A stretch of DNA of 62,803 bases, filler included, from Reclinomonas americana ATCC 50394 (lineage: Eukaryota), in assembly GCA_048213135.1 (NCBI GenBank). It is 7 parts of 3 records of this genome, joined end to end, with 100 filler letters (N's around TTAATTAATTAA, not from the genome) between each part and the next. Parts side by side here need not be neighbours in the genome. Positions count along the whole stretch, not along the records: positions 15,244 to 33,596 come from PS015283.1; 6 more parts are not named here. The stretch is one strand, 5' to 3'. A model generated the notes under the pieces. The model was not told the DNA's origin. It saw only the letters and a list, made by a program, of their open reading frames with translations, and did not search any database. This document shows, piece by piece, positions 13,224 through 47,308 of this stretch (position 1 is its first letter; every line of letters starts with the position of its first letter). Made by a program: the position numbers and the translations under genes.

Positions 13224-14436
13224 TCGACAATCATTGCGCACACTAATACGATCACAATAATACCGAGTGGATGACAAGGGACAGACCGTCATGTGGCCGT
13301 AAGACGAGATAGTCGACAATCATTGCATACACTAATACGATCACAATAATACCGAGTGGANNNNNNNNNNNNNNNNNNNNNNNNNNNNNNNNNNNNNNNN
13401 NNNNNNNNNNNNNNNNNNNNNNNNNNNNNNNNNNNNNNNNNNNNNNNNNNNNNNNNNNNNNNNNNNNNNNNNNNNNNNNNNNNNNNNNNNNNNNNNNNNN
13501 NNNNNNNNNNNNNNNNNNNNNNNNNNNNNNNNNNNNNNNNNNNNNNNNNNNNNNNNNNNNNNNNNNNNNNNNNNNNNNNNNNNNNNNNNNNNNNNNNNNN
13601 NNNNNNNNNNNNNNNNNNNNNNNNNNNNNNNNNNNNNNNNNNNNNNNNNNNNNNNNNNNNNNNNNNNNNNNNNNNNNNNNNNNNNNNNNNNNNNNNNNNN
13701 NNNNNNNNNNNNNNNNNNNNNNNNNNNNNNNNNNNNNNNNNNNNNNNNNNNNNNNNNNNNNNNNNNNNNNNNNNNNNNNNNNNNNNNNNNNNNNNNNNNN
13801 NNNNNNNNNNNNNNNNNNNNNNNNNNNNNNNNNNNNNNNNNNNNNNNNNNNNNNNNNNNNNNNNNNNNNNNNNNNNNNNNNNNNNNNNNNNNNNNNNNNN
13901 NNNNNNNNNNNNNNNNNNNNCGGATGGATGGATAGAGAAGAAAAGGGAAGTATGCGCACTAATGATACCACAAGCACAACCGCGACCGCCACAATCACTC
14001 CGGCGTTGTCCACGCGCGGATGGAAATGAGGAGCAGGCAACGAGAACACACAGACACATCACCATGAACAAAAACACCACACCATCCCGAACAGATGGCG
14101 GGATAACGACGCAGCGGGTGCGACCGCAGAGAACACATTAAACAAAGGGGGGGAGGCGGGAAACACCAAATCGAGATCCGCGAGATTAACTAACACACAC
14201 ACACACACAGTTGACGGGCCGCACAAGTGGCATCGACTGGGCACGGAGAGTAGAGGAGGGTAGCGGATGCGCGGGGGGGAAGCGATGAACCACAGGGGAA
14301 CACGGGAAGGGAGGGAGGAAAAATAAGAAAGGAACGACGAGACCCTGTCACCACCACATGGGCGACTCTCATAAGCACTCTCGGGCCAGCCACGGGGCAC
14401 GAGATGTTTGGCACACAAATAGATTTTTCACACACA

Positions 14437-16914
14437 TCACGCGCGGTGATCAGCACCCGCCACTCCTGCAAAAAGCACACACAATATGAGTGAACTGACC
14501 ACATAAGCACGAGTTGCAACATTTCGCTGGCACACAAACCTGGTATCCGATTGCCTCGCAGGAACGCCACCACATCGTCGCATCGTGCCATCTCTTGCAG
14601 GAACGGGGTGATCTCGTTCAGCTCCGTGTCGTTGGGGTCGTCGAACCACGACGAAATCGGCAGTGCATTCTCCGGCTGGAAAATGTACGACGCCGGCGAG
14701 TTGTCGATAATCACTGTTCGTGAGAGCTCGCGGCCGATGCATGAGAGGTCCTGTAAGGGGGGAGGGTGAGCGACGGGGATAAGGGGGAAAGGGGGGAGAA
14801 GGGGAAAGGGGGAGGGGGAGAAGGGAGAGGGGAGAAGGGGAGGGGGAGGGGAAGGGGAGGGGAAGGGGAGGGGAAGGGGGAGACGCAGAGAGGGCGAGAT
14901 GCAAAGAGCGGGAGATGCAAAGAGGGGGAGGTGCAGAGAGGGCGAGACGCACAGAGGGCGAGACGCACAGAGGGCGAGACGCACAGAGGGCGAGACGCGC
15001 AGAGGGCGAGACGCGCAGAGGGCGAGACGCACAGAGGGCGAGACGCACAGAGGGCGAGACGCGCAGAGGGCGAGACGCACAGAGGGCGAGACGCGCAGAG
15101 GGCGAGACGCGCAGAGGGCGAGACGCGCAGAGATGGAGACGCGNNNNNNNNNNNNNNNNNNNNNNNNNNNNNNNNNNNNNNNNNNNNTTAATTAATTAAN
15201 NNNNNNNNNNNNNNNNNNNNNNNNNNNNNNNNNNNNNNNNNNNGAGGGCGAGACGCACAGAGGGCGAGACGCACAGAGGGCGAGACGCACAGAGGGCGAG
15301 ACGCACAGAGGGCGAGACGCACAGAGGGCGAGACGCACAGAGGGCGAGACGCACAGAGGGCGAGGCACAGAGAGGGGGAGACGCGCAGAGGGGGAGACGC
15401 AAACAATGAGGGCGAGACGCAGAGAGGGGGAGGTGCAGAGAGGGCGAGACGCACAGAGGGCGAGACGCACAGAGGGAGAGACGCACAGAGGGAGAGACGC
15501 ACAGAGGGCGAGACGCAAAGAGGGCGAGACGCGCAGAGGGGGAGACGCACAGAGGGGGAGACACGGAGAGGGCGAGATACAAAGAGGGCGAGGCGCAGAG
15601 ACGGAGACGAGAGTCGGTTCTGTTTTTCAAGCGAACCTTGACGTAGGAACCGCCGTGGTTGGCACACGCCTCGCGGAACAGCCGATGAGACACCACCTTG
15701 TGCTTATCCAGCTTGTCAATTACGGGGTTGGCGTACTGCAATCACAATGAGCAACAAAGGACTCCCCTCAGAAAAACAACAGCAGAGACAGGAGAAGACA
15801 CACACCTTGCTGAGACTGGCCGTGAAAATCACCACCTCAAACAACTCGCCCATGGCCTTCATAAACTTCTCCACAAATGGCCGCTGCACAAACACGAAAC
15901 AACATAAGCCACTGACCATCACTCATCGCAGCGCACAAGCAAACAAACCTTGAGCACATACACGTCGTGTCTAAACAAGCAAACAAGCAAACAAACAAAG
16001 CAATTAAGGCAATCTGCTTGCGAGGAGGCAAGGCATGAATATAAGGACGCACCGCACGTTGTCAAACTCGACAGGAATGATAAAGTCGCAGCCTTCCACC
16101 GGCTACACACAACAAACACAGAGTCAGTCAACAATACAAAAGACACAATTGTAATGAGGGAAATACACTCAACTCGGAATGAACTGTGCACGAGCGTCTC
16201 ATCGAGATCCAACACCAACGTAATGAGGTTCTTATTGCGGCCGGTTTGCGGCGGCAACAGGTACTCTCGCGAGGGCGGAGCTGTCTGCTGTTATTATTAA
16301 TAAACAAACACAAAAAAAAGTGAGCGACTCTGTGAAAGAGAGAGCTGGGGAAGGAGCAGGCGCAACTGGTGTGTCAAGTGACCGCCGTGGTGTGGGAATC
16401 CTCGGCTGCGCGCGCAGAAGAGTGTGAGAAATGGCCGTGTCGGACAACACACACTCTTCGCGTTCTTCTTCTTCTCACCGCTTGTGGCACCGGTTGGCGA
16501 TTGGTGAAGCAGCAGAACAGGCGACTCAAGAACCCGCGCTCGCCATCAGAAGCTACACACACACACACACACAAACGTGAGAAGTGTGTGTGTGACACAA
16601 CAAGAGAATCACGCGAACGCACACTTGACAACGCTGGAGGAGGACGAGGCGACACCACCGTGCCGCAAGCTGAGATCGGCATCCGCGTGATGCTCATGCC
16701 CAGGAGTCACCTTTTGTGTCACAAAAAAAACAACAAGAGAGTGAGTACACAGAGAGAGCCGCACAAGGCCATTTCACGCTCACAAAACAAACAAACAAAC
16801 AAAGCGTGTGTGTTTAGCGTGTGCGTGTTATGTAACTTGGTAGATGGGGTTCTCTTCGCCGCCGAGATCGGGTGCGGCGGCTGAGGATGCGCTGCCTCCG
16901 CGTGATCCAGCCAT
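14437..16914 (-). CDS. CTD small phosphatase (SCP/CTDSP, FCP1/NIF HAD family)
   Basis: TLVLDLDETLVHSSF (DxDxT), KRPFVEKFM...[76 protein letters not shown]; N-terminal RLFCCF. Start codon inferred. Confidence 0.93.
14875..15610. repeat. 16-bp minisatellite (AGAGGGCGAGACGCAC)n inside an SCP intron, interrupted by a linker gap
   Basis: Tandem copies are visible on both sides of the 15144-15243 gap; the flanking exons join as SYVK|DLSC. Confidence 0.95.
15188..15199. other. Artificial six-frame-stop linker TTAATTAATTAA within N padding (also 33641, 39530, 47848, 53608, 59744)
   Basis: The same 12-mer is centred in ~100-nt N blocks six times; it is an assembly spacer. Confidence 0.97.
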
Positions 16915-17347
16915 GGCGCCTGCGCCACTGCCTGAACCGGCCGTGGTGGCTGCTGCTGCCGAGTACCGCGACGCCGTTGTTGCTGCTGTAGTGGTCGACG
17001 AGGAGGAAGACGCAAGAAGAAGAGGACGCGCTTGTTGGTGTTGCTTGGTTGTTGTGGTGGTGCCGACTCGCAACAGAGGGGAGCTTTCGGTGGTGGTGGT
17101 AATGGTGGCGGCTGCGTGAGGTGCTGTGGTTGCTGCTGTGAGAGTGGCGGTCCGACCGATCTCCGGAGACCACGTGGTGGTGTTGGCTTGTGGGGAGCGC
17201 AAGAAAAAGAGTGAATGGAAGCGAATGGACAACTTCGCGTCGGTCGCGGCTCCCTTCCTTCCCGGTTTTTTTCGTGCTCGGCTCCCTGGCGACTCCTTGT
17301 GTAATTGGCATCGATGTTGTACATGCAAGTCCCGTGCGACTTTGTAG

Positions 17348-18811
17348 ATGTTCAGAGGAGCTGTGCGCGCTGCTGTGTGGTCGCCGCCGCCTGATCACAC
17401 GCGACGGCTGAAGGATGCGCTTGGGATGGCGCCGCTCGAGCTCACGCAGCCGTTCACGGCAGAGGCGGTGATGGATGCAGTGGATCAGCTTGCGCCGGTG
17501 CCGTGCTTCCGGACGCCGGCGCACCAGCAGCTATATCATCGCCTTGCGTGGACTACTGCGATGTTGCAGCGTGACGCGTTTGTCGGCAAGCGAGGTGTCG
17601 GTTCATCGCTGTTTGTTGGTGGCGTGGGTATCGGCAAGACGACCGTGTTGCGCACGTGGGCGGACCTGTGCGGCGTCTTCTTCCCCGATGTGATTGCCGT
17701 GCACGTCAACTACGCGGATTTCTCCGCGCCGGACTGTGTCGTGGGCCGCAAGAGCGTGATGCAAGTCGTGCAGGATTGCCTAGCGCAGACGCACGGCATG
17801 CGCGTCCGCGAGGACGTGAGCACGGAACTGCGGCTCATCGACACCCTACAGCGACACAACAAGAGGCTGCTGCTACTGGTGGACGAGTTGGATCAGTTGT
17901 ACCGCCTGGGTGGCGTTGACGTACTGGTGGACTCGCGCGCAGCTCAGCTTGCAGATGTGGCACTGGGAACACTCGCCGAACTCACCTTCCTCGGCGATCA
18001 GGCCTCGGGCCTCATCAGCACCAACCTGTGTGGATCTGCTGCGGTTCTGCCCATGCTGATCACGTGCAATGCGAGCCCTGCGCTTCGCGGCGAGTTCCCC
18101 GCTCTCAGCAACGCGCCCAACCTGAACGGCACCAAGTACCGCACCGACCGCCTCCATTGCAGCACTCCTGTCGACACTCGAACTGCGGCGGCTGTGCTCC
18201 GCGGCTGCATCAACTTGGTCGGCGGAGAAGAAGGTGCGGTGGAGCTGCTCCACCTTTGTCTCTTTCTGGCCGGGTCCACACCACGCGCCCTCGAAGACAT
18301 CATCGACGCCACGTTGGACCGCACGCGCAATGAGCCTGACCAAGGCTACACCACTGCCAAGGTTGGACGCTTCCGGAGCGCCCTCTTGGTCAAAATGTGG
18401 GAGAAGAATCAGACGTTGCTGGTCCCGTTCATCAACGACGACCACTTTGACGTGGCCCCTGCTCTCCGCGGCGAGTGGACCACGTTCTCTCCGTTGACGT
18501 GCGAGGAGGCGTTTCAAGTGTGGCAGCAGCAGTGTGTCACTGATGAGGACGCCACGATGAATAGCGCCGTGGAGGCGCTGCTTCACCTGGACTTCCGCTG
18601 CTGGTTGGTGCTGGACGGTGTGGAGAACTGCTGCCCGAAACGCATTTATCCGGCTTCCGTGTTCCAAGTCGTGAGGCATCGGCTGGAGAACGGACGAGAT
18701 GGTGCGGAGAATCCCGTTCTCGTGGACGCTCGTCGCAGACTTGCAGAGAAGCTCGTTGACTTGCTCGGCAAGTACGCTCCAGGTGTTCTCGGCAGCTCGA
18801 CCGTCGATTAG
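17348..18811 (+). CDS. Intronless P-loop NTPase (AAA+/STAND-like), 487 aa
   Basis: Uninterrupted ORF with Walker A GGVGIGKT and Walker B LLLLVDELD, then a sensor-like LCGS; no introns, unlike neighbouring genes. Confidence 0.8.
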   Translation: MFRGAVRAAVWSPPPDHTRRLKDALGMAPLELTQPFTAEAVMDAVDQLAPVPCFRTPAHQQLYHRLAWTTAMLQRDAFVGKRGVGSSLFVGGVGIGKTTVLRTWADLCGVFFPDVIAVHVNYADFSAPDCVVGRKSVMQVVQDCLAQTHGMRVREDVSTELRLIDTLQRHNKRLLLLVDELDQLYRLGGVDVLVDSRAAQLADVALGTLAELTFLGDQASGLISTNLCGSAAVLPMLITCNASPALRGEFPALSNAPNLNGTKYRTDRLHCSTPVDTRTAAAVLRGCINLVGGEEGAVELLHLCLFLAGSTPRALEDIIDATLDRTRNEPDQGYTTAKVGRFRSALLVKMWEKNQTLLVPFINDDHFDVAPALRGEWTTFSPLTCEEAFQVWQQQCVTDEDATMNSAVEALLHLDFRCWLVLDGVENCCPKRIYPASVFQVVRHRLENGRDGAENPVLVDARRRLAEKLVDLLGKYAPGVLGSSTVD

Positions 18812-18970
18812 GTTGCCGTGGTCGTCGTCGCAATATAGTTTGACTCACTGATTTCGCCGTAACATTGAGCCTTACTAATTTTGAATCGCTCAAACCGACG
18901 AAGTCTTCCAACCGACCCTGAAAACGCTGTTGGAGCGTTGGTCTCGCGCCAGGACGTAAGTGTCTCAACG

Positions 18971-19338
18971 ATGGGCTGCGCTTCGTCGAAGGTCTGCGTG
19001 TGTTGGAACATGGTCATCTTTACAGTAGACACTCACTCTGCATCCAGCAACAACGCGCCCAGGAAGTGGTGGACACAGGTATGATGATGCGCTGCGGGTG
19101 TGTGCGGGCGTGTTTGTGTGTGTGTGTGTGTGTGCGGGCGTGTTTGTGTTCTCCGATTTTGTGTGTGATGTTTTTTTGATCGCGATCGACTCATCGTTCA
19201 TTTACAGTGCGACGCATGTTTGAGACGCAAGTGCCCGTGTTCCGTCACTTTTCGCAGGAGAACCAGGAGCGATTGATTCGTTCTCATATCTTGACGTTCA
19301 AGCTGCTGCCCCCCAACTATTATATGAAAGTCATTTGA
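18971..19338 (+). CDS. Possible ~60-aa protein with an N-terminal dual-acylation motif (MGCASSK)
   Basis: Splicing 18992-19047 and 19079-19206 gives MGCASSKQQRAQEVVDTVRRMFETQVPVFRHFSQENQERLIRSHILTFKLLPPNYYMKVI*. The second intron has GT..CAG ends and a TG tract typical of introns here. Confidence 0.3.
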
Positions 19339-19452
19339 TTTTTTTGACGTGTTCGCCCAGACTGCGTGAGTTCTTCTATTGTTTCACGCCCCTCGGCGCC
19401 TCCTTTTCCCGCTTCTCACTCACACTGGTTGTGAGCACTTTCTTATTTCTCG

Positions 19453-19566
19453 ATTGCAGTGTTGGTGCACGAGGTGGCTCGCTGCACGCCGGAGACATGC
19501 CGTGGACACAATGTTTAGTTTGCGCGACATATGATGACGTTGGTAGGGTTGCTCGTGCGGAATTAG
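19453..19566 (+). pseudogene. Degenerate relic of the HExxH metallopeptidase C-terminus of the 23680-26558 gene
   Basis: Translates IAVLVHEVARCTPETCRGHNV*FARHMMTLVGLLVRN* versus IAVLLHELAHCTPETRQGHGVEFARYLTVIVGEVLRM in the intact gene; in-frame TAG at 19516-19518 replaces Glu and the second His is lost. Confidence 0.8.
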
Positions 19567-19807
19567 AAACTGCGGTTCTGATGGAAGGAGAAGAAGTCTG
19601 GCAGCAGCACTGCAATTAGCAGTGAGGCATGTTGGCAGTGAAAATGGTCACGTGCAATGATTGTCGATCGACAGTCGAGAGTTTCAGGCAATGGCCTCAG
19701 CTGATCAAGTACTGCCAAGCACAATGTTTAAGGAAGGCAGGCGCGCGCACCTCAATGAGATCGGATTCACTCCGCGAGACACTACGTCACATCGAACTCA
19801 GTAGATG

Positions 19808-22800
19808 TCAGTTGCTGCACTTGAACTGGCAGGCATTCTGGAACCACTGAACTCGAGTTTTGTCACTGCATATCCATTGGTTGTTACCGCCGAGGTCGCA
19901 CTGGGCGTAGATGGCCGCTGGTATGGTAAGCCACTGATCAGGGACTTGACTGGCTATTTTGCTGTTTTCAAGCCTCCTGCAAAAGATAGCATGTATAAGT
20001 ACTCCAACCGAATCGAAGACAACTGTGCATTCCCAATCACTCTCTTACAAGAGGATACTCACAAGTAGGTGAACTGGCGGGTGGCATACTCAGCAGGCAA
20101 TGCACCGTTGAACGAATTCTCCGAAATATCACTGCATGTGAGTGGTTTCCAAGTAAGTTGATGCAGATTGGGAGAGAACAGACAATAAAACGAACATCCG
20201 CGTTACGTTAGGCAGCCCAACGAGTGGAGGATATGTTGTCAGGAGATTGCTGCCAACGAACCTGTGAAAAAACAGAGACACGATGGATGACACAGAGTGC
20301 TGACATGAAAACCGCGTGTCTACTGGAACTTACAGTCCCTGCAGAGAATCCAACTGTAGTAATGGAGGTGGTATTGACGAGAGACGATTGGGCCCAACAT
20401 CCCTGAGCGACAGCATGAGTGACTCACTATTGGACACCAGACGCACGCCCCGATGGCCGCGGCGATACGTATACTCAACAGAACAGTCCACGGATTTTTC
20501 ATGTTCAACAGTTCAGAAGGAAGTTGAAAGAGCCCGAGGTTATACAGCTTTCTGTACGCCAGTAACTCAGAGTCCAGGTAGGCAACAACAAGTATGAAGA
20601 GAGAGAGCACTCACAGTTGTGTAAGGCCCGTCATCCCCAGGAGTGAAAATCCAAGAGTCACTGGTTGAGAAGGGTTGACATTACTATATATCCCAAGAGC
20701 GAGCCTCTGCAGCTGGCGCATTTGCCCCATACACGAGGTCCCGAAGATGGCTGATGATGATACCGAATTAGTAACCATCACTTCACTGAGCGTTAGTAGC
20801 ATGAGAAAAATCGTCAATGCCGTAAGCAAATGCTAAATGGATTCAATACGCACAAGACGAGTAAGTTTGCCAGCTTGCACACAGAGGGCGCGATCACCGG
20901 CTGTTTGATAGCTATGGACCTGAGAGGCGTATAGTAGAATGTCAGAACACGATAGCAAAAAACACATGTAATCAGCAGCAACAAACGCACAGGGTCTCCA
21001 GTAGAGGCAACTGTAGCAGCTGGTCGGTGACACTCGGGCATGCAAAGTTTAATCCATATGTCATCCTGCGTGGGTGTAACTGTCGACGTCAGGGTGCTGC
21101 AGTGATTGTTAACATGTTGTCAGCTTGCAGCCACTTACAATGTAACTAATCCCTTTGCGTTGAAAAAGACGTCATGGCAACCATACAGATTGTCATTGTG
21201 CGACACATCACTGACAAACGGATGTGAGCAACATGGCGTTGGAGACACAAGAATGGCAATGCGTCAAATGGACAATGTACGAACACATTAACCAAGTGAG
21301 TAAGCGATCGAATCGACTCCGGCATCCGCCCATTGAGACCGTTGAAGGCAAGGTGTCTATCGACAAACAATATAGTCACCACCATTATTTTGATTGATTG
21401 ATATCCAATCAGCTCACGCACATTTCAGTGACCTGCGGAGCAGCGAAATTACTATGTACAAGTGTGTTTGCAACAACAACGAAAGGGAGACAGTAAAGTC
21501 CTCACCGCTTCCGAATCGTCGCAAACAACACCAAACCATTCGCAATGTGACACGTCATCCAAAAGCCACAAATCGTTTCGGCTCCATTTTGCACCGTTGG
21601 TCGCTTGGTACAAGTCCGTAAGGATGGATCGTGATAGATCAACTTCACAAAAAGTTCCTGACCAAGTAGTAGAAGCCGTGATTAGCGAGTGCACGTGGAA
21701 AGTCGTGTCGCGTAATCGAAAATATTGTGCAGCCACAGCTCACCATTGTACGGTGGTTGACAAACGCAGTAGCTGAGTTGGAAATAGTCGGACTTCTGGC
21801 ACGCACCACGGCCGCTGCAAGAGACGGGGTAGCGCTCGCTGGTGCAGTTCACTGGAATGTTGAAGTAGGTGCCCAAAGCCTGGTTCAGCAACGCGGCCTT
21901 AGTGTTAATGTTCGAGTCATTGGGAAACCTAAAAGCATATGCAGCAGTGAGAGCACACTTGTCAGCGTAGAGACGCACGGATGCACACGATGCTTACCAC
22001 GCAGAGGTGAAGAAATCAGATATGAGCTTGGTGTCAATCCGAAGCGGCACTGGCGAGTTGATCACTGTCGGGGCCCAGGCAGTGAAATTTGTCGATATAC
22101 TGTCACCACCGTACGTCGAGACATGTAGATTCTGCGACTGGGTGGCCTGTTGCCACTTCTGGTAAGCGGTGGTGTTTGTGTTCACCTTGGCGAGTGGGAA
22201 AAGTCAGATCGCACACAAATCGAGCAATGTTTTTCTTGCAAGTGCGACGCGAGAAGAACCTTTTGTCCGGCATGAACGAAGAAATCCACCGAAGCTTGCT
22301 CTGAAACAACAACGCCTTGTTCTTTAAGCTGCTCGTAGGTAGACACGTCCAATGTCGACTGTTCCATCATCTGCCGCAGGAAAGAAAAGAGTCGGATACA
22401 AATCCAGTACATACACCAGAAAAAGACTCACCACTCCACCAAGTTCCATCTTGGCAACGGCATGTGTTCCGAATCGGGTGATAAAGTCAACGTAAGCAGT
22501 CGACATGTCGCCACTCGTTGGAAGGTGTGCCACTGCATTTCGGAAAGCCAAAGAAAACGCCGGCTGCTGCGAGTACGGGTCGAACTGCGGAGAAGCAATC
22601 CAGTACGAGGCTCGAGCCTTGTTGAGGTAGAAGTAGGATGACTGCGACTGGATACTCTCCGCCATGTTGTGTGTGTTGACGTCGAGTGAAAAGGCAAATT
22701 TCCAGAACTTGGTGTCAACGCCGACGTCAATTGTCTTGCTGTTCATGATATCTTGCAGACTTTCGAACGCGCCACTTTGGGAGTCGAAGTTGAGGGTAGC

Positions 22801-23345
22801 ACTGCACGACACTTGAATTCCGAAAGGCACGAGCAAGTCCGACTGACAGGTCCCATCAGCAGTCACTGCTCATTCACATAGTATTGAGTAGTCGTTCGTG
22901 CACAGGAATCGTGACACCGCCCCCACCCCCCTCTCTCTCTCTCTCTCCCACACACACGCACACACACGCACACCATTCGCATACCATTATAAACAAACGT
23001 GAAGATGTTATCGCGAAACGTTTCAAAAATGTCGTCTGAGCCCTGAAAGAACGGACTGCCCTTCAGCACATCTACACCTTGTGCCAGGTAGTTGATGCCA
23101 GGCAGGGCTGTGGGGGAGACGCAGATGAGAGAGGTGGACACAGCATGAAGCACGCGCCTGCGACCATTACTTTTTCCAACACGGTCGTGTTGACCGCGCA
23201 TGCGCGTGTGCACAATGCTGGGGAATGCTTGCGTGTCTTCTGTCAACGACACCATGACTGTCTCTCGAGAGCACGATGCAAGCATGCTCAGGCATGACGC
23301 GCATGCCAAGAGCGCCACACACAAGAACACAAATCGACCTCGCAT
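19808..23345 (-). CDS. Predicted secreted MACPF (perforin-like)-EGF-LRR protein
   Basis: Signal-peptide-like MRGRFVFLCVALLACASC; MACPF signature YVDFITRFGTHAVAKMELGG (~22435-22495) and WAPTVINSPVPLRIDTKLISDF; EGF-like CSGRGAC...CVCQPPY...GTFCE; LRR N-cap LTDLYQATNGAKW..NDLW..CEWFGVVC; ~11 LRRs (e.g. LDVGPNRLSSIPPPLLQLDSL); Cys cap CDLGGNNQWIC...C...C; TGA at 19808-19810; no transmembrane segment seen. Confidence 0.88.
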
Positions 23346-23679
23346 CTTTCAGCGTCCCCCACACACACAAATAATCAATAGTGGGCTCGCGCGCGCGACC
23401 GGGTGAGTGAAATTTTGCTGTCTTTTCACTTTCCACCTCCCTCCAGTGGAAGCCACAGTTACTGTGCGTCACACACACTGCTGCATATATCCGCGCTGCA
23501 ATCACCTCTGCCTTCCGCACAAAACACGAGTCGCACTTCCTGTCGTCCCGCCGCCGGGTTGTCATCAATCCTCCTTTCCACCCACCCACCAACTCCACCA
23601 ACGCATCACGACAACAACTCGACAATGCCTCGATTCTCCTTCTACCCCCCATCATTACTCTCGCCCTCGCACGCAGAGA

Positions 23680-26558
23680 ATGGACGCACCTCCGTCTCGG
23701 ACTCGTGTTTCCTTTCCCTTGCCGTCCGCCAACGCATCACCTGTGTCGACAAAGAACGTCTTTGAGGCACGACCACCACCAGCCCCTCTGTCCCCCACAG
23801 GCGACACGGACGACCACGCAGTTGTTGTTGTCGAACCCCCTCGCAAGAAGCAACGTGTGGGTTCTCCCGCTCACAGCGACAGCGACGAGAGTGACGACGA
23901 CGAATGCAACAGCAGTGCCGGTGACATGGATGTCGATGGCGATGATGTCGACGAGGATGATGATGAGAGAGCTTCGCGACGCAAGAAGTCGAGGAGGCCG
24001 CCGATGCCACAGAACTTGGTGCCGCCTGCGCCTGGCGACGACTCTGAGAGGCTGCGCAGGCTGTTCAGCAATGAGGTATTTTCCTTCCACCTCCTGCGCA
24101 TGCTCTGCATCGTGCCCATGCTCAGTTCTTGTCGCCACACAGGTGCAGCGCCTGGTCGACTTTGCCACGCCGCTCGCGCACGAGCTTTCGGCAAGCAACA
24201 TCCATCACTTGAACGTGACGGCCAGTTTCGGCTCGGTGGACGGCACGTGGGACTTGTCGGCGGCGATGCGAGAGCTGGTGCAGAACGCCTTTGATGCCGT
24301 GTGCGTGCATCATTCACCGGCCACGCACACCTTTGCCAACGAGGTCACCGAGCTCGCTGATCCGGCGAGCGGTTCCCTTGGTGGTTGGATGTTCCAGCAG
24401 TTCGCCACTGAGAACCGCTCCGTGCGACGCCAGTGCGTGGCGTGGTTTCTGCGGTTCGGCGAGTTGTTTGCGTGCTGGAACGTTGGCGCGTTGCCGCAAG
24501 ATGCCCTGCGCGTATTCGGTCGCTCGGCAAAGCAGGATCATGGTGGCAGTGGAATGGCGGGGCGGCACGGCGAGGGCCTGAAGATGGCCGCCACCACCCN
24601 NNNNNNNNNNNNNNNNNNNGCGCAGGGGGTGCTGATGATCGTCACTCCGGCTCCTGGCTTCCCTTCCCCGCACGTCAACGGCACTCTGCTGCTGTGCAAG
24701 CGTCCCGTCAGACTCAGCAAGGCACTGTCGCTCGACTTCTTTCGCGACATCCACCTCGGCTTCTGGCCTGCCAGTCGCTTGCTCGCCAATCCTGATGTTC
24801 TGTCGGTGGCCAGCGCTCGAGGCAGAGCTTCGTGTCCGTGGCAGCAGCGCCGAATCTTCACCAATTCGAAAGCGGTGTACGTGGCCGGTGCGCGAGTGAT
24901 GGAGGACCACGATGGACTTTTGTTGTGCGGCTACAACCTCCCGGCTGCGACGCCTGTGGGCCGCGATCGCGACTGGGTTGCTCCTTCCGACCTACGCGAA
25001 CATGCCGGCAAAGTGCTGTCCAAACTTTTGCTTGGCGAAAAGAGTGTCGCACAGGTTAGTAACACGCACTGCGTGTGTGTTTTTGTGCATGTGCATGTCT
25101 CAGTCTGACAAACGCATGCCTACAGGCGGTGGCCAAATTGTTGATCGACAAGTGCTGCACTGGCGATGGTCGCTGCGACAACACGCTGCAGGATGTGCGC
25201 GGTCTCGCCGAGATGTGCAACCGTGGTTCGAAACCGTATGAGGCACTGGTGGAGGCCTTCAAGGACAAGTATGGCGCAGACGCTCAGCCCACTGACGACG
25301 CCAACAGCGACTTTGCTCCGCTCCTTTCGGGCAAGCCGCAGCCCGTGTCGGCGTCCGTTTTCAGGTTGCTGACGGCTCACGGCCCGTATCCTCATCCGCG
25401 CAAAGCAGTCCATGCCATGCTGGACTCTCTGTTCAAGCAGCGGGGTGTTTCGGTGGACGCTGTCCCGCTGCAGTATCGCGCACACGTGGAGAGTGTGAGC
25501 CACGACCGTATTCTTCGTGCATCGCCGCTGCGAAACGTTGTACGTCTCCACCTCTCCGGACCGAAGGAGCTGATGCAGGATCGAAAGGTGCTCTTTGACA
25601 ATCGCGTTCACGCATCGCCCGTGTTGCATGTGTTCGCCGATCGCTGCCAGACGAGGGCCGAGGCCGACAACGGCATAGTGCAAGCGTACAGTGCGATCGA
25701 GTTGCACAAGAAGGCCGCCGGTCAATCGCAGCTGCCACTTCCACCTCCTTCGGACGACGGCGAGGAAGACGAGGTTGACCTCCCGTGCAAAGGCCGCGAT
25801 TCTCGTCGCCGGTTTACGCCAATGTTCACGCAGCGTGGGCCCGGCATCGATTCGCTCAAGGTTTATCTGGAGACCGTGACGCTGTTCAAAGTACTTTAGT
25901 CACCCTCTCTCTCTCTCTCTCTCGCAGTATCTGCAAGAGCGCACGAAAGCACTGCTCGAGCACGGTGCCGGTGCTGCAGTCCCAAAGTCGGAAGGCGACT
26001 GCAACAGCAAGCTGCCTGCCGATAGCAAGGTTCGCTGCATGATTTGCCGTCGATTGTTCTCAGCATGTTCACTGTGTGGGAGAGCAGATCGTGTCGGTGG
26101 ACGAGATCGAGGAACAAAAGTGGAATCCAGAGCCAATGATGGCTGCTGCTGTCTTGCGTCTTCTGCGGGAGCGACTGCCGGAGTGTGCCGAATTGACGAA
26201 TGCCAAATTCTCAGTCGACAGCTTCCTGTCGCTAGTGGACAAGCTTCGGATGGTGAAGAAGCTGCTGATGGGCTCCTGCGACGACAGCGTCAAGCTCAAA
26301 TTGTTCCACTCGTGCGCCAATCCGCGTCGACTGGACGGCTTGTGCGTTTTCAACGCGAACCGCACCATCGACATCTACATCAACATCGACTTGTGTACTG
26401 CGGCCGAGGATCGACGACGCGCACGTGGCGACTGCATCGCTGTACTGCTCCACGAGTTGGCGCATTGCACACCAGAGACGCGCCAAGGACACGGTGTCGA
26501 GTTTGCCCGGTACTTGACCGTCATAGTGGGGGAGGTGTTGCGCATGGCGAAGCAGTGA
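23680..26558 (+). CDS. GHKL-type ATPase fused to a C-terminal SprT/WLM-like zincin metallopeptidase
   Basis: WDLSAAMRELVQNAFD (ExxxNxxD), GRSAK, GRHGEGLK (GxxGxG); C-terminal LLHELAHCTPETRQGHGVEF (HExxH..H); N-terminal NLS-like PPRKKQRV plus an acidic tract. Introns ~24076-24142, 25055-25125, 25861-25927, 26030-26087; a short gap at 24600. Confidence 0.78.
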
Positions 26559-26701
26559 GAGTGGAAAAGTATACAGAAAAATAAATGTCACCACTATCTC
26601 CATACCAAACGTACCGCCAACTTGCAACTGTTTACTGTAAATGTGTGACAGCTCGCACGGTGTCGTGCAGTCTTTTACGTTTCGCCGATCAAGCAAGACT
26701 C

Positions 26702-27363
26702 ATGGCAGCGGTACTGCGCATCACGCCACTCGCTCGCATCCAGGAGTACATCAACCGCGGAGAGATCGACACTTGGACTTTCTGGGGTCAGCTCGTGCAG
26801 GTGCGTACGTCGAACGGGCCCGGGTGTGGCACCATGGTCGCGTCTCACAGCCCCACATAGGAGGCCTGCGAATCTGCTAACCGCCTGCGTGCACACTGCT
26901 ACTACAAACTGTACTGCAAGAACATGGAGAAGGGTGTGTGTTGTGTTTTCCTTGCTCCCTCTCTCGCCCTCTCTCGGTGCCAACGCAGCGCCCCACAGAC
27001 TCGGCTTGGCAGGCGCTGGGGGCCTTGGCAGAAACTCGCGGAAGTGAGAGTGTGTTCCACCGCCACCTGCTGAGCTCTTCGCGACGCCACCGGCGGCTGG
27101 GTTCGGAGGACGACGGCTCAGAGGAGGATGAAGAGGCAGACGAATCGTACTCGAGTGATACTGCCTGCGTGGCCGTGCGACGCAGCGACATTGCTCGCGA
27201 CTTGGGCATGTCGTGGAGGAGGAGGCAGTGCGCTTCCACATCGTCANNNNNNNNNNNNNNNNNNNNGGTGGTGACAGCGAGTGTGAGTGTCCTGTTGATT
27301 AAGTACGAGGCGCAATCGCGTGAATTGACAAAGCATTGTAATCTGTTTCGAGAAACTGACTGA
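26702..27363 (+). CDS. Hypothetical multi-exon protein
   Basis: MAAVLRITPLARIQEYINRGEIDTWTFWGQLVQ|EACESANRLRAHCYYKLYCKNMEK with GTGCGT/GTGTGT donors and AG acceptors; no family recognised. Confidence 0.4.
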
Positions 27364-27399
27364 ACAGCGTGCAGCCTCATACTCAACTACTCTCTGCCT

Positions 27400-27999
27400 A
27401 GCATACCAAACACGCATTCTCTGTCTCTTCTCGACTGATTCGAAAAGAGATAACATGGAAAGCAGCACACTCTCAAACACAACTTCGTTGCCCTGCATAC
27501 ACACGCATTTTCGCCTCTTCTCGACAGATTCGATGGGGATGACATGGAAAGCGGCGACGCCCTCAAACACGACTTCTCTGCCCTGTACAAAACCACGCAT
27601 TCTCCGCCTCTTCTCACTTCTTCGCACCGAGACAGCTGACTGACCAACATGAAGCAGTAGAAATAGCCTCTTTCGTACATACGAACACACACCAAACACG
27701 CACATGAAAACACAGCAACGCCGTCAAACACAATCACTCTGCCCGCAACACAAGCACGCATTCCGCATTTCCCATCAACACTGCGTGACGATCTCGACAC
27801 ACATTCACACCTCCCTTCTATTCTTTCTTTCTCCCCCTCTCCGCCAATCCCTCGGCAATTACGAGCATCTCCAGCCATCCCCAAAAAGAATGAGTGACGC
27901 TCTCTCTCTCTCTCTTTCTCACACACGCACGCGCGACACAGCAACGCCTTCAAACACAATCACTCTGCCCGCAACACAAGCACGCATTCCGCATTCCCC
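27400..27999. repeat. Degenerate tandem repeat with core TCAAACACRAY...TGCCC...CACGCATT
   Basis: The core recurs near 27472, 27562, 27724 and 27949; the last two copies are nearly identical over ~55 nt; abuts a gap. Confidence 0.75.
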
Positions 28000-28958
28000 N
28001 NNNNNNNNNNNNNNNNNNNNNNNNNNNNNNNNNNNNNNNNNNNNNNNNNNNNNNNNNNNNNNNNNNNNNNNNNNNNNNNNNNNNNNNNNNNNNNNNNNNN
28101 NNNNNNNNNNNNNNNNNNNNNNNNNNNNNNNNNNNNNNNNNNNNNNNNNNNNNNNNNNNNNNNNNNNNNNNNNNNNNNNNNNNNNNNNNNNNNNNNNNNN
28201 NNNNNNNNNNNNNNNNNNNNNNNNNNNNNNNNNNNNNNNNNNNNNNNNNNNNNNNNNNNNNNNNNNNNNNNNNNNNNNNNNNNNNNNNNNNNNNNNNNNN
28301 NNNNNNNNNNNNNNNNNNNNNNNNNNNNNNNNNNNNNNNNNNNNNNNNNNNNNNNNNNNNNNNNNNNNNNNNNNNNNNNNNNNNNNNNNNNNNNNNNNNN
28401 NNNNNNNNNNNNNNNNNNNNNNNNNNNNNNNNNNNNNNNNNNNNNNNNNNNNNNNNNNNNNNNNNNNNNNNNNNNNNNNNNNNNNNNNNNNNNNNNNNNN
28501 NNNNNNNNNNNNNNNNNNNNNNNNNNNNNNNNNNNNNNNNNNNNNNNNNNNNNNNNNNNNNNNNNNNNNNNNNNNNNNNNNNNNNNNNNNNNNNNNNNNN
28601 NNNNNNNNNNNNNNNNNNNNNNNNNNNNNNNNNNNNNNNNNNNNNNNNNNNNNNNNNNNNNNNNNNNNNNNNNNNNNNNNNNNNNNNNNNNNNNNNNNNN
28701 NNNNNNNNNNNNNNNNNNNNNNNNNNNNNNNNNNNNNNNNNNNNNNNNNNNNNNNNNNNNNNNNNNNNNNNNNNNNNNNNNNNNNNNNNNNNNNNNNNNN
28801 NNNNNNNNNNNNNNNNNNNNNNNNNNNNNNNNNNNNNNNNNNNNNNNNNNNNNNNNNNNNNNNNNNNNNNNNNNNNNNNNNNNNNNNNNNNNNNNNNNNN
28901 NNNNNNNNNNNNNNNNNNNNNNNNNNNNNNNNNNNNNNNNNNNNNNNNNNNNNNNNNN

Positions 28959-29472
28959 CCGCGCCTCCATTCTGCGCCTGCATCAGCTTCTCATGCTCAA
29001 ACTCCTTGACCTTGTAGTCGTAGTAGGCGTGGTACGGGTTCATCTCGAACAGGAACTGGAACTTGAGATTGGCGCTCTCGTTGCTCATGACTTTGCGCTC
29101 GAATTCCTTGCCGTTGTTGGCCACAAACTGCGCCGTCTTGTCCACAATCACACGCAGATCGGGTGGCGGATAGATGATACCTGTTGTGTCACACACACAA
29201 AGAGAGAGAGACAACATGTCAATTCACATGTGGACACTGCAGAGTGCAACTGAATGTGCACTCTCTCCTGCCGCGCGATGCACAGTGTGGCAACACGAGG
29301 CTGCGCGCGTGTGTGCTTGCGCGTGACATTGGAGAGGCATATGGCGCGCGCACGTGACAACTTTCTCTCTCTTTCTTTCCTCTGCGCGCGTGTGTGTATA
29401 TGTGTTGCGTACTGCACCTGCCGGCTTCTTCGGTGGCCCTGTGGGCACATCGGTCTCCATTGCGGTGGCCAT
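28959..29472 (-). CDS. SF3A1: Splicing factor 3A subunit 1 (Prp21), 5' part only
   Basis: SURP domain GIIYPPPDLRVIVDKTAQFVANNGKEFERKV..NE..NLKFQFLFEMNPYHAYY; runs into a gap. Confidence 0.92.
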
Positions 29473-29555
29473 TGTGTGGTGTGTGATGGACAGTTCCAAG
29501 CGCGCGGGCACCACTGTCCCACGCGCCATCTGTCCCTCTCACTCAAAAATCACTC

Positions 29556-30204
29556 ATGGCGTTGCGTGCACTGACCCCACACTCACGCACACACACGCGC
29601 ACTCAAGCCAGTTGCAGCAGCTGCACACGCGCTCCTCTCACGCACTCATTTTTTCCTATTTTGCTTGCAACAATGGCGCGCCATCTCTCACACACTCTTG
29701 CTCCTCTTCTTTAGTGCCGTGTCTGCGGATACTCTTGCGCTTCAACGCGACGTGCGTTCGTGGCTGGAGACAGTGCTCGGGCGTGCCATTGGCGGCTCAC
29801 CCTCGGACGATCTGCTCACATTGCTGCGCGATGGCAAAGTTGAGCGCGTGTGTTGTCAACACTCACGCGCAAACATGTCGCGACTCCTCTCACAGACAGA
29901 CGCACTCTCTCTCTCTCACAGGTGCTGCTTGCACTGGTGAAGAAGGTAAACCCCGGCGCGGCTGTTGCAGTGCGCGAGGGCGGCGGGCAGGCGGCCAACG
30001 CGGAGAATGTGCGGCAATTCCTCGCCGAGTGCAAGTCACTGGGAGTTGCCGAGCAGCGTCTCTTCTCGGTCGAGGACCTCACCGGCTCCGCCTCCTTCTT
30101 GCCTGATGCGCGTCTGCGTGTGGTGCATGGACTGGAGGCAGTCGCAACGCGCTTTGCGGAGAACAATCGCACTCCCCCACTCAACTCGAGTGGCCGTGCT
30201 TTTG
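29556..30204 (+). CDS. Calponin-homology (CH) domain protein, 5' part
   Basis: VRSWLETVLGRAI...DLLTLLRDGKVLLALVKKVNPG...AENVRQFLAECKSLGVAEQRLFSVEDL...RVVHGLEAVA; the first coding exon is ATGGC (29556-29560). Confidence 0.85.
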
Positions 30205-31560
30205 GTGAGCACACGCACACACACGCACGCACACACACACATNNNNNNNNNNNNNNNNNNNNNNNNNNNNNNNNNNNNNNNNNNNNNNNNNNNNNNNNNN
30301 NNNNNNNNNNNNNNNNNNNNNNNNNNNNNNNNNNNNNNNNNNNNNNNNNNNNNNNNNNNNNNNNNNNNNNNNNNNNNNNNNNNNNNNNNNNNNNNNNNNN
30401 NNNNNNNNNNNNNNNNNNNNNNNNNNNNNNNNNNNNNNNNNNNNNNNNNNNNNNNNNNNNNNNNNNNNNNNNNNNNNNNNNNNNNNNNNNNNNNNNNNNN
30501 NNNNNNNNNNNNNNNNNNNNNNNNNNNNNNNNNNNNNNNNNNNNNNNNNNNNNNNNNNNNNNNNNNNNNNNNNNNNNNNNNNNNNNNNNNNNNNNNNNNN
30601 NNNNNNNNNNNNNNNNNNNNNNNNNNNNNNNNNNNNNNNNNNNNNNNNNNNNNNNNNNNNNNNNNNNNNNNNNNNNNNNNNNNNNNNNNNNNNNNNNNNN
30701 NNNNNNNNNNNNNNNNNNNNNNNNNNNNNNNNNNNNNNNNNNNNNNNNNNNNNNNNNNNNNNAGAAGGCACACGAGTGATCTGTGCGTGCGTGTGAGTTG
30801 AGAGGCTGACGAGGGGAGAGGGAAAAGACTGCTTTTGAGTGAAAAAAAACGCACTGCTGCAAAGAATCAGCGAATCTCGACATTGCCCCAAGCTCCGACC
30901 AATTGATCCAACGACTGCTACATCGTTTACTTCATTTTCTTGCCTCCTCGTGAGCGAACGCTATCCCCCCAGCTAACCCCCTCACTCTCCACACACCACC
31001 CACGTTGCGTAACGCACTCTTCACCTCCCCTCACTTGACACACACGCGCTGGCATCATCGCATCTTTTTCTCCTGCAAAAAAGATGCTCATGTCACCGCC
31101 TTGTCTCCGCGTTGCTCACACGCATGCACACACACACTCTGTCTCTTTCATGCACGAGCGCCTTGTTGCTCGACATGTCACACACCACTCCAGCACGTGC
31201 CTTGTTTTGCTTTCGTCACACATTCATGCTCTCACTCTCCACCTCTCGTCCAGCGCGCACACCTCCATCTCCGCCGCTCATCTGCTTCTTTGCACGCGCG
31301 CGTGTGCGTGTGCGTGTTGTCTTTGTCACGACGATGGCGCAATTGCCCGTCTTTTTTGTTTGTGTTTTTCCTCAAACACGCACACTTTTCTCTCTCTGTC
31401 GCACACACACATGCTCTCCCCTCACTCCACTGTGCGCGCACACGCTCATTGTGCACGATTCTTCTTGTGTGACGTGCCTCGTGCTGATTCTGAGATGCGA
31501 ATCTCCGCGCCTGTTTGTGTGCTCAAACACCACTCTTGTCTCTCTGTGCAGGTTGTCAAC

Positions 31561-33520
<1,960 letters not shown>

Positions 33521-33696
33521 GTATGTGTAGCGTACCAGAAAGAAGAAAAAACTCTCCTCCACACACTCACACTTGCTGGTGCAACGACCACAGTTCNNNN
33601 NNNNNNNNNNNNNNNNNNNNNNNNNNNNNNNNNNNNNNNNTTAATTAATTAANNNNNNNNNNNNNNNNNNNNNNNNNNNNNNNNNNNNNNNNNNNN

Positions 33697-47069: not shown

Positions 47070-47308
47070 TCAGTTGGCATGGGCACTCGCGATACCATTC
47101 GTTTCCTCTCGCGCGATTGAAGACTCTTGTTGCTACATCAACCATCGCAATCCTATTTCCACACACTCACACACATACAGTCGCTGTGTGTGGCATGTGC
47201 AGAGAGAGCAGGAGAGTGGATGTGAGAAAGCAGACGAAGCGGCGACTCCTCACTGGTGTCATGCATCAATGTCCTACATACCACGAATCTTGTGCGTTGC
47301 AAAGGAGA

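What the first reader, a model, noticed from the sequence alone, without database searches (positions are those of the whole stretch)
19976..21432. One-LRR-per-exon cassette array, all symmetric phase 2
Seen: consecutive exons 21356-21285 (72 nt), 21210-21139 (72), 21065-20991 (75), 20919-20854 (66), 20785-20615 (171, two repeats), 20551-20480 (72), 20402-20334 (69), 20261-20196 (66) and 20131-20063 (69). Each is a multiple of 3 and is split after base 2 of the same hydrophobic LRR codon, so any exon can be skipped, duplicated or swapped in frame. The repeats are strongly diverged from one another. Known: exon-per-repeat LRR genes that diversify by exon shuffling are described in brown algal ROCO genes. 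Inference: a route to diversify the target specificity of a pore-forming toxin.
Basis: partly seen in the sequence, partly recalled or inferred. Interest (0 to 1): 0.75.

Follow-up and report, generated by a model that had tools for sequence, protein, structure and literature searches.

The report
One-repeat-per-exon LRR array, perforin-like gene
The exon pattern is real, but it is the familiar way leucine-rich-repeat domains are built in plants, brown algae and other eukaryotes; here it forms the tail of a secreted perforin-like protein and shows no sign of recent reshuffling.

Summary
Observation confirmed. On the minus strand, 23345-19808 holds an intact 18-exon gene with 17 GT-AG introns of 57-119 nt. 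The nine listed exons have exactly the stated coordinates and lengths. Ten consecutive introns are phase 2, and each splits the codon of the first hydrophobic residue of the LxL motif.

The modelled 761-residue protein reads: signal peptide, MACPF domain, EGF-like module, Cys cap, about 11 LRRs, Cys-rich tail.

The layout is already described:
- Rice LRR-kinase introns split the same residue in phase 2 (PMC3050792).
- Ectocarpus "type II" LRR exons have this register and show no shuffling (PMC3341825).
- The shuffling ROCO exons use a different register.

I found no trace of recent shuffling at this locus:
- Exon and intron nucleotide identity equals the shuffled background.
- There are no DNA repeats.
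- There are no relic LRR exons or paralogues in the 62.8 kb window.

Genome-wide paralogues, isoforms and selection could not be tested. The MACPF-LRR fusion was absent from 19 MACPF relatives and from three literature searches.

Verdict: an old exon-duplication array in a possibly unusual perforin-LRR fusion. Interest is modest.

The parts
19808..23345 (-). Whole coding span of the gene: 18 exons, 17 GT-AG introns, 2286-nt CDS, 761 codons plus stop
   Evidence: Model built from the open frame and GT-AG borders. An in-frame stop lies directly upstream of the ATG (ORF border 23348).
23165..23345 (-). Exon 1: start codon and hydrophobic N-terminus (signal-peptide-like, by eye)
   Evidence: No signal-peptide predictor was run.
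21998..23107 (-). Exons 2-5 (23107-22985, 22865-22432, 22370-22260, 22185-21998): MACPF domain with the FGTH...GG signature inside exon 3
   Evidence: Pfam MACPF on exon 3 alone scores 32.5 bits against a cut-off of 21.5; exon 5 scores 15.2 bits on profile positions 148-198. The spliced model aligns over residues ~60-367 to 19 of 19 MACPF proteins, up to 117 bits. Atlas nearest clusters are MACPF/thiol-cytolysin.
21744..21928 (-). Exon 6: end of the MACPF region plus an EGF-like Cys module
   Evidence: EGF_Teneurin 19.2 bits, below the 24.3 cut-off, and EGF 11.8 bits. It aligns with the MACPF+EGF protein P0014 through residue 415.
21506..21657 (-). Exon 7: N-terminal Cys cap of the LRR domain (C-x-W-x-G-V-x-C type)
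   Evidence: LRRNT_2 14.1 bits, E 0.059, below the 20.7 cut-off. The motif is visible.
21422..21432 (-). 11-nt micro-exon that moves the frame from phase 0 to phase 2 and supplies the start of the first LRR strand
   Evidence: This is the in-frame GT-AG path I found by hand between exons 7 and 9; I did not enumerate alternatives. Read-through of intron 7 hits a stop at codon 17.
21285..21356 (-). LRR exon, 72 nt, phase 2-2
21139..21210 (-). LRR exon, 72 nt, phase 2-2
20991..21065 (-). LRR exon, 75 nt, phase 2-2 (degenerate repeat)
20854..20919 (-). LRR exon, 66 nt, phase 2-2 (degenerate repeat)
20615..20785 (-). Double LRR exon, 171 nt (84 + 87), phase 2-2; most simply one lost intron
   Evidence: The unit HMM finds two units, at 20781-20704 and 20697-20617. 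The split is computed.
20480..20551 (-). LRR exon, 72 nt, phase 2-2
20334..20402 (-). LRR exon, 69 nt, phase 2-2
20196..20261 (-). LRR exon, 66 nt, phase 2-2
20063..20131 (-). LRR exon, 69 nt, phase 2-2
19808..19976 (-). Last exon: final LRR, a four-Cys C-terminal tail and the stop codon; no hydrophobic anchor seen
   Evidence: unit at 19972-19907. No Pfam family at E up to 10.

Best explanation
The nine exons are the core of the leucine-rich-repeat domain of one intact gene. That gene encodes a secreted protein in this order: signal peptide, MACPF (perforin-type) domain, EGF-like module, Cys cap, about 11 plant-type LRRs and a Cys-rich tail.

The one-repeat-per-exon, all-phase-2 layout is the footprint of an old tandem duplication of a single exon-plus-intron unit. 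The intron splits the first hydrophobic codon of LxL, the same place and phase as in plant LRR receptor kinases, and the exons have the register of Ectocarpus type II LRR exons. One intron was later lost, giving the 171-nt exon.

The layout still allows in-frame gain or loss of repeats. Because the split codon always has T as its second base, any junction stays hydrophobic. At this locus, however, the units have diverged to background, so the array now behaves as a fixed structure rather than an active cassette system.

Shown: the gene structure, the phases, the domain identities and the lack of recent duplication in the window.

Inferred: the LRR solenoid is the target-binding arm that brings the MACPF domain to a surface, taking the place of the C2 domain of perforin or the accessory domains of complement proteins. 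Whether the protein is used for attack or for defence is open.
For: - Gene model: 18 exons, 17 of 17 introns GT-AG, frame open from ATG to stop.
- Phases: 10 of 10 array introns are phase 2, against 1 of 7 elsewhere in the gene. The junction residues are all I, V, L or F.
- MACPF: Pfam above the cut-off, and 19 of 19 MACPF relatives align along the spliced model.
- LRR identity and class: a profile of the 11 exon-delimited units matches 86 PDB sequences at E up to 10. By name, the 60 best shown are almost all plant LRR receptor kinases or receptor-like proteins, with FLS2 at 4e-23 and 81 bits. The clear exceptions are two LIC-numbered chains.
- Same register in print: the Ectocarpus type II exon is xLxxNxLxxxxxGxxxxxxxLxxL, with no shuffled or inactivated exons found (PMC3341825, passages).
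- No recent duplication. Over 45 pairs, unit nucleotide identity has mean 0.539 and maximum 0.638, against shuffled 0.519 +/- 0.041 and maximum 0.639. Intron identity is 0.556 with maximum 0.635, against 0.513 +/- 0.043 and maximum 0.635.
- No direct repeat of 16 nt or more in 19700-21500, and no tandem array apart from microsatellites in intron 2.
- No extra units: the unit HMM run over the six-frame window finds only the 11 units themselves at E up to 0.013; the next hit is E 0.84 and the rest are E 3 or more.
- No paralogue: tblastn of the model against the window gives self hits only.
Against: - The array is fully permissive for shuffling: 9 of 9 skips, 9 of 9 duplications and 36 of 36 swaps stay in frame. 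Such arrays do shuffle in brown algal ROCO genes and in Tetrahymena (PMC3341825, PMC11378527, PMC6564038).
- I saw only 62.8 kb. The window is stitched from contigs with artificial linkers, so paralogues elsewhere in the genome are not excluded.
- There are no transcripts, no orthologues and no population data, so alternative splicing, selection and copy-number variation are untested.
- Several middle repeats are degenerate, and Pfam found no LRR family on any single exon. The exons may simply be too short for that test.
- The class assignment rests on many weak per-repeat scores (10 bits or less each in the alignments shown) that add up in long 24-residue-repeat proteins.
- The whole spliced LRR domain could not be sent to Pfam, to the structure predictor or to the large protein searches. 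Those tools take only unaltered contiguous window sequence.
Confidence: 0.6

Rival explanations
1. One reading: the array is an active diversification device. Exon gain, loss and exchange between paralogues, and/or alternative splicing of the symmetric exons, produce many LRR variants that retarget a pore-forming toxin.
For: All nine exons are 2-2 symmetric. Every skip, duplication and swap tested stays open, and every junction codon is hydrophobic. Precedents exist in ROCO LRR exons of brown algae, which also show splice variants (PMC3341825 and PMC11378527, passages), and in the Tetrahymena 90-bp phase-2 arrays (PMC6564038, passages). The gene's GC3 of 0.58 lies below the 0.60-0.84 of neighbouring ORFs, so its history or expression may differ.
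Against: Units and introns show no similarity above background. There are no DNA repeats, no relic or antisense LRR exons and no second LRR gene in the window. Introns of 63-86 nt leave no room for the intronic cassettes seen in ROCO loci. The exon register is that of Ectocarpus type II exons, for which no shuffling was found (PMC3341825).
Confidence: 0.15
2. Same gene, different role. It is not a toxin but a self-defence or developmental protein. In this reading the LRR domain recognises microbial or matrix ligands, and the MACPF domain acts as an immune effector or signalling module, as in complement or the plant MACPF proteins. This rival concerns function only and is compatible with the structural explanation above.
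For: The LRR units resemble plant pattern-recognition ectodomains most closely, with FLS2 the top hit. The MACPF-then-EGF order is that of perforin and the terminal complement proteins (recalled; the perforin-1 match is weak, E 0.17). A NACHT/AAA-type P-loop ORF lies convergent next to the gene. That is at most a hint.
Against: No experimental or expression data are available. The neighbour has no repeat domain, and adjacency alone proves nothing. The organism and its lifestyle are unknown.
Confidence: 0.2
3. The array is an artefact: a pseudogene, a mis-assembly or a chance chain of GT-AG-bounded open segments.
For: No transcript evidence is available. The scaffold is stitched from contigs. 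An 11-nt exon is needed to keep the frame.
Against: The gene span 19808-23345 contains no N. The frame is open across 18 exons with 17 of 17 GT-AG introns. The N-terminal half is collinear with 19 real MACPF proteins across five introns. The unit profile independently retrieves LRR proteins from the PDB. Seven of the ten array introns contain in-frame stops and three shift the frame.
Confidence: 0.03

Closest known systems
LRR exons of plant LRR receptor kinases (rice survey, PMC3050792)
   Same: Introns split the first Leu of xxLxLxx in phase 2. Most exons are 72 nt and hold one repeat, with others of 66, 69 and 75 nt and double-sized ones. The repeats are of the plant type, and the domain begins with a Cys cap of the CxWxGVxC kind.
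   Different: There is no transmembrane segment and no kinase here. The LRR domain follows a MACPF-EGF unit, and the organism is an unidentified eukaryote with ~70-nt introns. Whether the shared intron position reflects common descent or convergence was not tested.
Ectocarpus 'type II' LRR exons of LRR-kinases (PMC3341825)
   Same: They are 24-residue exons in the register xLxxNxLxxxxxGxxxxxxxLxxL, which matches the exon borders here. They are modular yet show no sign of shuffling, as at this locus.
   Different: The protein context differs (kinase there, MACPF here). The intron phase of type II exons is not stated in the passages I read.
Brown algal ROCO 'type I' shuffling LRR exons (PMC3341825, PMC11378527)
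   Same: One LRR per 72-nt symmetric exon, so exon gain, loss or exchange is frame-neutral.
   Different: The register differs (the exon starts at GxxP). ROC-COR domains are present there, along with intronic and antisense relic exons and near-identical paralogues with rearranged arrays. None of these is seen here.
Tetrahymena 90-bp LRR exon arrays (PMC6564038)
   Same: Tandem LRR exons separated almost only by phase-2 introns, with a 'junction' residue encoded by two exons.
   Different: Those exons are exactly 90 bp, occur in thousands of young genes and keep nucleotide similarity. Here the exons are 66-75 nt, in one gene, and fully diverged.
Perforin / terminal complement proteins (MACPF followed by EGF and a targeting domain)
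   Same: MACPF domain with the signature motif, followed by an EGF-like module and then a separate C-terminal domain. The perforin and complement domain order is recalled, not taken from a call.
   Different: The C-terminal domain is an LRR solenoid instead of C2 or TSP/LDLa/CCP modules. Sequence identity to any MACPF protein in the libraries is about 35% or less.
Gonadotrophin receptor LRR exons
   Same: One LRR per exon, and all introns phase 2, as cited in PMC11378527 (passage read).
   Different: This is an animal GPCR context with another LRR class. It was not examined here.

Membership tests
Plant-type exon-per-repeat LRR array (as in rice LRR-kinases / Ectocarpus type II exons) | One LRR (about 72 nt) per exon | tested here: met
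   Eight of nine exons are 66-75 nt with one unit each, and one of 171 nt holds two units.
Plant-type exon-per-repeat LRR array (as in rice LRR-kinases / Ectocarpus type II exons) | Intron in phase 2 within the codon of the first Leu of xxLxLxx | tested here: met
   10 of 10 introns; junction residues are I, V, L, L, F, L, L, L, I, L. The criterion is taken from PMC3050792.
Plant-type exon-per-repeat LRR array (as in rice LRR-kinases / Ectocarpus type II exons) | Repeats of the plant-specific LRR class with an LRRNT_2-type cap | tested here: inconclusive
   The unit profile retrieves plant LRR ectodomains first (FLS2 at 4e-23). However, LRRNT_2 scores 14.1 bits against a 20.7 cut-off, single exons give no Pfam LRR hit, and the middle repeats are degenerate.
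LRR receptor kinase | Transmembrane segment and cytoplasmic kinase domain | tested here: not met
   The model ends 55 residues after the last intron with a Cys-rich tail. No kinase or other Pfam family was found on the last exon.
Brown algal ROCO shuffling LRR cassettes (type I) | Exon register GxxPxxLxxxxxLxxLxLxxNxLx | tested here: not met
   The exons here begin one residue into LxL and end before the next LxL.
Brown algal ROCO shuffling LRR cassettes (type I) | Relic or antisense LRR exons in the introns | tested here: not met
   The unit HMM run on all six frames found none beyond the 11 units. The introns are 63-86 nt.
Brown algal ROCO shuffling LRR cassettes (type I) | Recently duplicated paralogues with rearranged LRR exons | not testable with these tools
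   There is none in the 62.8 kb window. The rest of the genome is not available, and no homologue was found in the protein libraries.
Brown algal ROCO shuffling LRR cassettes (type I) | ROC-COR GTPase domains in the same protein | tested here: not met
   The upstream part of the protein is MACPF-EGF.
MACPF / perforin superfamily | Match to the MACPF profile above the curated cut-off | tested here: met
   Exon 3 alone scores 32.5 bits against 21.5. 19 of 20 library hits are MACPF proteins, and all 19 align to the spliced model.
MACPF / perforin superfamily | Signature (Y/W/F)-G-T/S-H-x7-G-G | tested here: met
   An FGTH...GG stretch in exon 3 aligns with the perforin-1 motif. The consensus itself is recalled.
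MACPF / perforin superfamily | Oligomerisation and membrane pore formation | not testable with these tools
   This needs protein and membrane assays. No fold was predicted, because the domain spans several exons.
Tetrahymena 90-bp LRR exon arrays | Exons of exactly 90 bp | tested here: not met
   Exon lengths are 66-75 and 171 nt.

The most novel reading that the evidence does not exclude
The gene is one member of a lineage-specific family of secreted perforin-like proteins. In this reading their plant-type LRR arm is varied by in-frame exon gain, loss or alternative splicing, making a 'retargetable perforin' in a protist. It would be a new domain combination (MACPF-EGF-LRR) coupled to a cassette mechanism.
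Probability: 0.1. Interest if true: 0.7.

Novelty: new member of a known kind. Interest (0 to 1): 0.3.

Why it matters
The exon layout alone adds another lineage to a pattern already documented in plants, brown algae, vertebrates and ciliates. It also shows the plant-type phase-2 intron position outside an LRR-kinase context. That bears on whether this intron position is ancient or has arisen repeatedly.

The more unusual point is the protein: a MACPF-EGF unit joined to an LRR solenoid. None of the 19 nearest MACPF relatives carries an LRR domain. Three full-text searches listed no paper describing such a fusion, judged from titles and abstracts only.

If the LRR arm does direct a pore-former, it would be a simple natural example of recognition and membrane attack in one polypeptide. 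This is untested.

Tried and rejected
- Large protein searches with single exons found nothing close. The MACPF exon gave 0 hits among longer proteins. In the exhaustive representative search it gave only 20 hits, at identities of 35% or less and a best E of 4.3e-07. One of these, P0010, is a helix-hairpin-helix repeat protein and is probably spurious.
- The Cys-cap exon gave 0 hits even at E up to 10.
- Pfam on each LRR exon alone gave no LRR family. The exons are 21-24 residues, so I treat this as uninformative. I used a profile of the units against the PDB instead.
- Rfam found no RNA family in the window.
- Attempts to place the organism failed:
  - An acetyl-CoA carboxylase fragment in the Atlas gave only 'Eukaryota' with mixed phyla.
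  - The neighbouring P-loop ORF has a best relative at 41% identity. The organism's proteome therefore does not seem to be in the library.
  - The Acanthamoeba genome paper was checked for MACPF or LRR exon statements and has none relevant.
- The genome-contig collection (bacteria and archaea only) was not scanned, because the gene is eukaryotic.
- The spliced protein was not sent to Pfam, structure prediction, complex prediction or the big searches. Those tools take only contiguous, unaltered window sequence.
- No complex-prediction job was run.
- Supplementary tables of the papers were not opened. They may list exon phases for Ectocarpus type II exons.
Full report
**What is at the coordinates**

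I read the minus strand of 19700-27000. Joined, they are open in one frame only.

Extending the model by open frame and GT-AG borders gives a complete gene on the minus strand:
- The ATG is at 23345, with an in-frame stop directly upstream (ORF border). The stop codon ends at 19808.
- There are 18 exons and 17 introns of 57-119 nt, all GT-AG.
- The CDS is 2286 nt, or 761 codons.
- The span contains no N.

The intron phases run 1,1,0,0,2,1,0 through the first seven introns, then 2 for ten introns in a row. The run starts after an 11-nt exon (21432-21422) and ends before the last exon (19976-19808).

The codon split by each of the ten introns encodes I, V, L, L, F, L, L, L, I, L. This is the first hydrophobic residue of the LxL strand of the repeat.

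**Is it more than chance?**

- Seven of the ten array introns carry an in-frame stop and the other three shift the frame, so they cannot be coding.
- All 9 single skips, 9 duplications and 36 pairwise swaps of the nine exons stay open to the natural stop. Only 2 of 7 skips of the non-LRR internal exons do.
- The donor side always ends in AT, GT, TT or CT. All 12 possible junction codons therefore encode I, M, L, V or F.
- Ten of ten introns in one phase at one repeat position, against one of seven in the rest of the gene, is not a chance pattern. This is my inference; I ran no formal test.

The units are 9-29% identical to the first.

**What the gene encodes**

- MACPF domain. Pfam on single exons gives MACPF at 32.5 bits (cut-off 21.5) for exon 3, and a sub-threshold MACPF match for exon 5.
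- EGF-like module. Exon 6 gives sub-threshold EGF matches.
- LRR cap. Exon 7 gives a sub-threshold LRRNT_2 match, 14.1 bits against 20.7, on its C-x-W-x-G-V-x-C motif.
- MACPF relatives. An exhaustive search of 1.84 billion representatives with exon 3 found only 20 proteins at E up to 0.001. The best was 4.3e-07, and identities were about 35% or less.
  - Nineteen of them are MACPF proteins and one is a helix-hairpin-helix repeat protein.
  - In a local blastp all 19 align collinearly with the spliced model over residues ~60-367. One, a MACPF+EGF protein, aligns to residue 415. Scores reach 117 bits; the E-values there refer to a 23-protein database.
  - This supports the exon joins of the N-terminal half.
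- Signature motif. The FGTH...GG stretch in exon 3 aligns with the perforin-1 signature (weak, E 0.17).
- The Atlas look-alikes of exon 3 are MACPF and thiol-cytolysin clusters.
- Secretion. The N-terminus is hydrophobic and the C-terminus has no hydrophobic anchor (by eye). I therefore read the protein as secreted.

**Are the exons really LRRs, and of what kind?**

Single exons are too short for Pfam, which found no LRR family in ten pieces. I aligned the 11 exon-delimited units by reference and searched the PDB with the resulting 23-position profile.
- 86 distinct sequences match at E up to 10.
- By name, the 60 best shown are almost all plant LRR receptor kinases and receptor-like proteins. 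FLS2 leads at 4e-23, followed by MIK2, GSO1, HSL1, PSKR1, TDR, BRI1, ERL1 and the SERKs. The clear exceptions are two LIC-numbered chains.
- Per-repeat scores are weak (10 bits or less in the alignments shown) and add up over long arrays. The call for 'LRR' is therefore firm, and the call for 'plant-specific class' is suggestive.
- Several middle repeats are degenerate.

**Comparison with what is in print**

- Rice LRR-kinases (PMC3050792, abstract and two passages). [quoted passage not shown] Exons are 72 nt, and also 162, 144, 81, 78, 75, 69 and 66 nt. This is the arrangement seen here.
- Ectocarpus (PMC3341825, passages). The paper separates two exon types:
  - Type I exons (GxxPxxLxxxxxLxxLxLxxNxLx) belong to ROCO genes. 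They shuffle, leave relic and antisense exons in introns, and differ between near-identical paralogues.
  - Type II exons (xLxxNxLxxxxxGxxxxxxxLxxL) belong to LRR-kinases and eight other loci. No shuffled or inactivated exon was found for them.
  - The exons here have the type II register.
- Other phase-2 LRR arrays are reported for brown algal ROCOs and gonadotrophin receptors (PMC11378527, passages) and for the Tetrahymena 90-bp exons (PMC6564038, passages).
- Plant-like LRR-kinase sequences are reported across eukaryotic supergroups (PMC13091385, passages).

The closest precedent, however, is the non-shuffling type.

**Signs of shuffling at this locus**

I found none.
- Pairwise nucleotide identity of the ten exon units (45 pairs) has mean 0.539 and maximum 0.638. 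Shuffled units give 0.519 +/- 0.041 with maximum 0.639.
- For the ten array introns the values are 0.556 and 0.635, against 0.513 +/- 0.043 and 0.635. The slight excess fits shared splice signals.
- There are no direct repeats of 16 nt or more in 19700-21500. The only tandem repeats in the gene are microsatellites in intron 2.
- An HMM of the units, run over all six frames of the window, recovers only the units themselves at E up to 0.013. The next hit is E 0.84 and all others are E 3 or more.
- tblastn of the model against the window gives self hits only.
- The introns are 63-86 nt, too short to hide cassettes.
- The 171-nt exon holds two units and is most simply explained by the loss of one intron.

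**Limits**

- The window is a pseudo-scaffold. Six N44-TTAATTAATTAA-N44 linkers join its contigs. Only 15244-33596 is contiguous with the gene, and that stretch still contains ordinary gaps.
- The organism was not identified. The sequence is eukaryotic:
  - It carries a multidomain acetyl-CoA carboxylase, ribosomal protein L32e, an NIF-type (NLI-interacting-factor-like) phosphatase and an EF-G-like (elongation factor G-like) fragment.
  - It has about 55-60% GC and ~70-nt introns.
- The proteome seems absent from the libraries. The neighbouring ORF's best relative has 41% identity, and searches gave no hits.
- Genome-wide paralogues, isoforms, selection and strain variation could therefore not be tested.
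- The full spliced protein could not be sent to Pfam, to folding or to the large searches.

**Verdict**

The structure is an old tandem exon-duplication array, with the intron place and phase of plant LRR-kinase genes and the exon register of Ectocarpus type II exons. It is frame-neutral for exon gain and loss but shows no evidence of current use as a cassette system.

The protein is a secreted MACPF-EGF-LRR fusion, and the LRR arm is most plausibly the target-binding part (inferred). The fusion was not seen in the 19 nearest MACPF relatives. It was also not seen in the listings of three literature searches, judged from titles and abstracts only. This is the only mildly new element.

Noticed in passing
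window 21422-21432 (-): An 11-nt micro-exon is needed to join the Cys-cap exon (which ends in phase 0) to the first LRR exon (which starts in phase 2). It is the GT-AG path I found by hand that keeps the frame; I did not enumerate alternatives.
   Followed up: partly
window 23108-23164 (-): The first 'intron' is 57 nt, a multiple of three, and has no stop. It could equally be retained coding sequence, adding 19 residues after the signal peptide.
   Followed up: partly
window 15144-15243, 33597-33696, 39486-39585, 47804-47903, 53564-53663, 59700-59799: Six identical artificial linkers (44 N, TTAATTAATTAA, 44 N), which are six-frame stop spacers. The window is a pseudo-scaffold of joined contigs, so gene order across these points may not be real.
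   Followed up: yes
window 17348-18811 (+): A 487-codon open frame with weak AAA_22/NACHT P-loop matches (23.2 and 20.7 bits, both below cut-off) lies convergent to the MACPF-LRR gene. Its best library relatives are 41%, 32% and 30% identical, are about 500 residues long and carry no repeat domain.
   Followed up: partly
window 19808-23345 versus neighbouring ORFs: The MACPF-LRR coding sequence has lower GC (0.50) and GC3 (0.58) than Pfam-supported neighbouring ORFs (GC 0.58-0.66, GC3 0.60-0.84). Its introns are at 0.48.
   Followed up: partly
window 22931-22988 (-), inside intron 2: (CT)n and (CA)n microsatellites fill much of the longest intron (119 nt).
   Followed up: no
window 23411-26584 (+): A divergent neighbour about 0.3 kb upstream of the MACPF-LRR start has long open frames (396, 162, 278 and 234 codons) with no Pfam match.
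   Followed up: no
window 1529-10432 (+); 14190-15143 (-); 40554-41138 (-); 46769-47575 (+): Housekeeping genes are present: a multidomain eukaryotic acetyl-CoA carboxylase (biotin carboxylase, central and carboxyltransferase domains), an NIF-type (NLI-interacting-factor-like) phosphatase, an EF-G C-terminal (elongation factor G) fragment and ribosomal protein L32e.
   Followed up: partly
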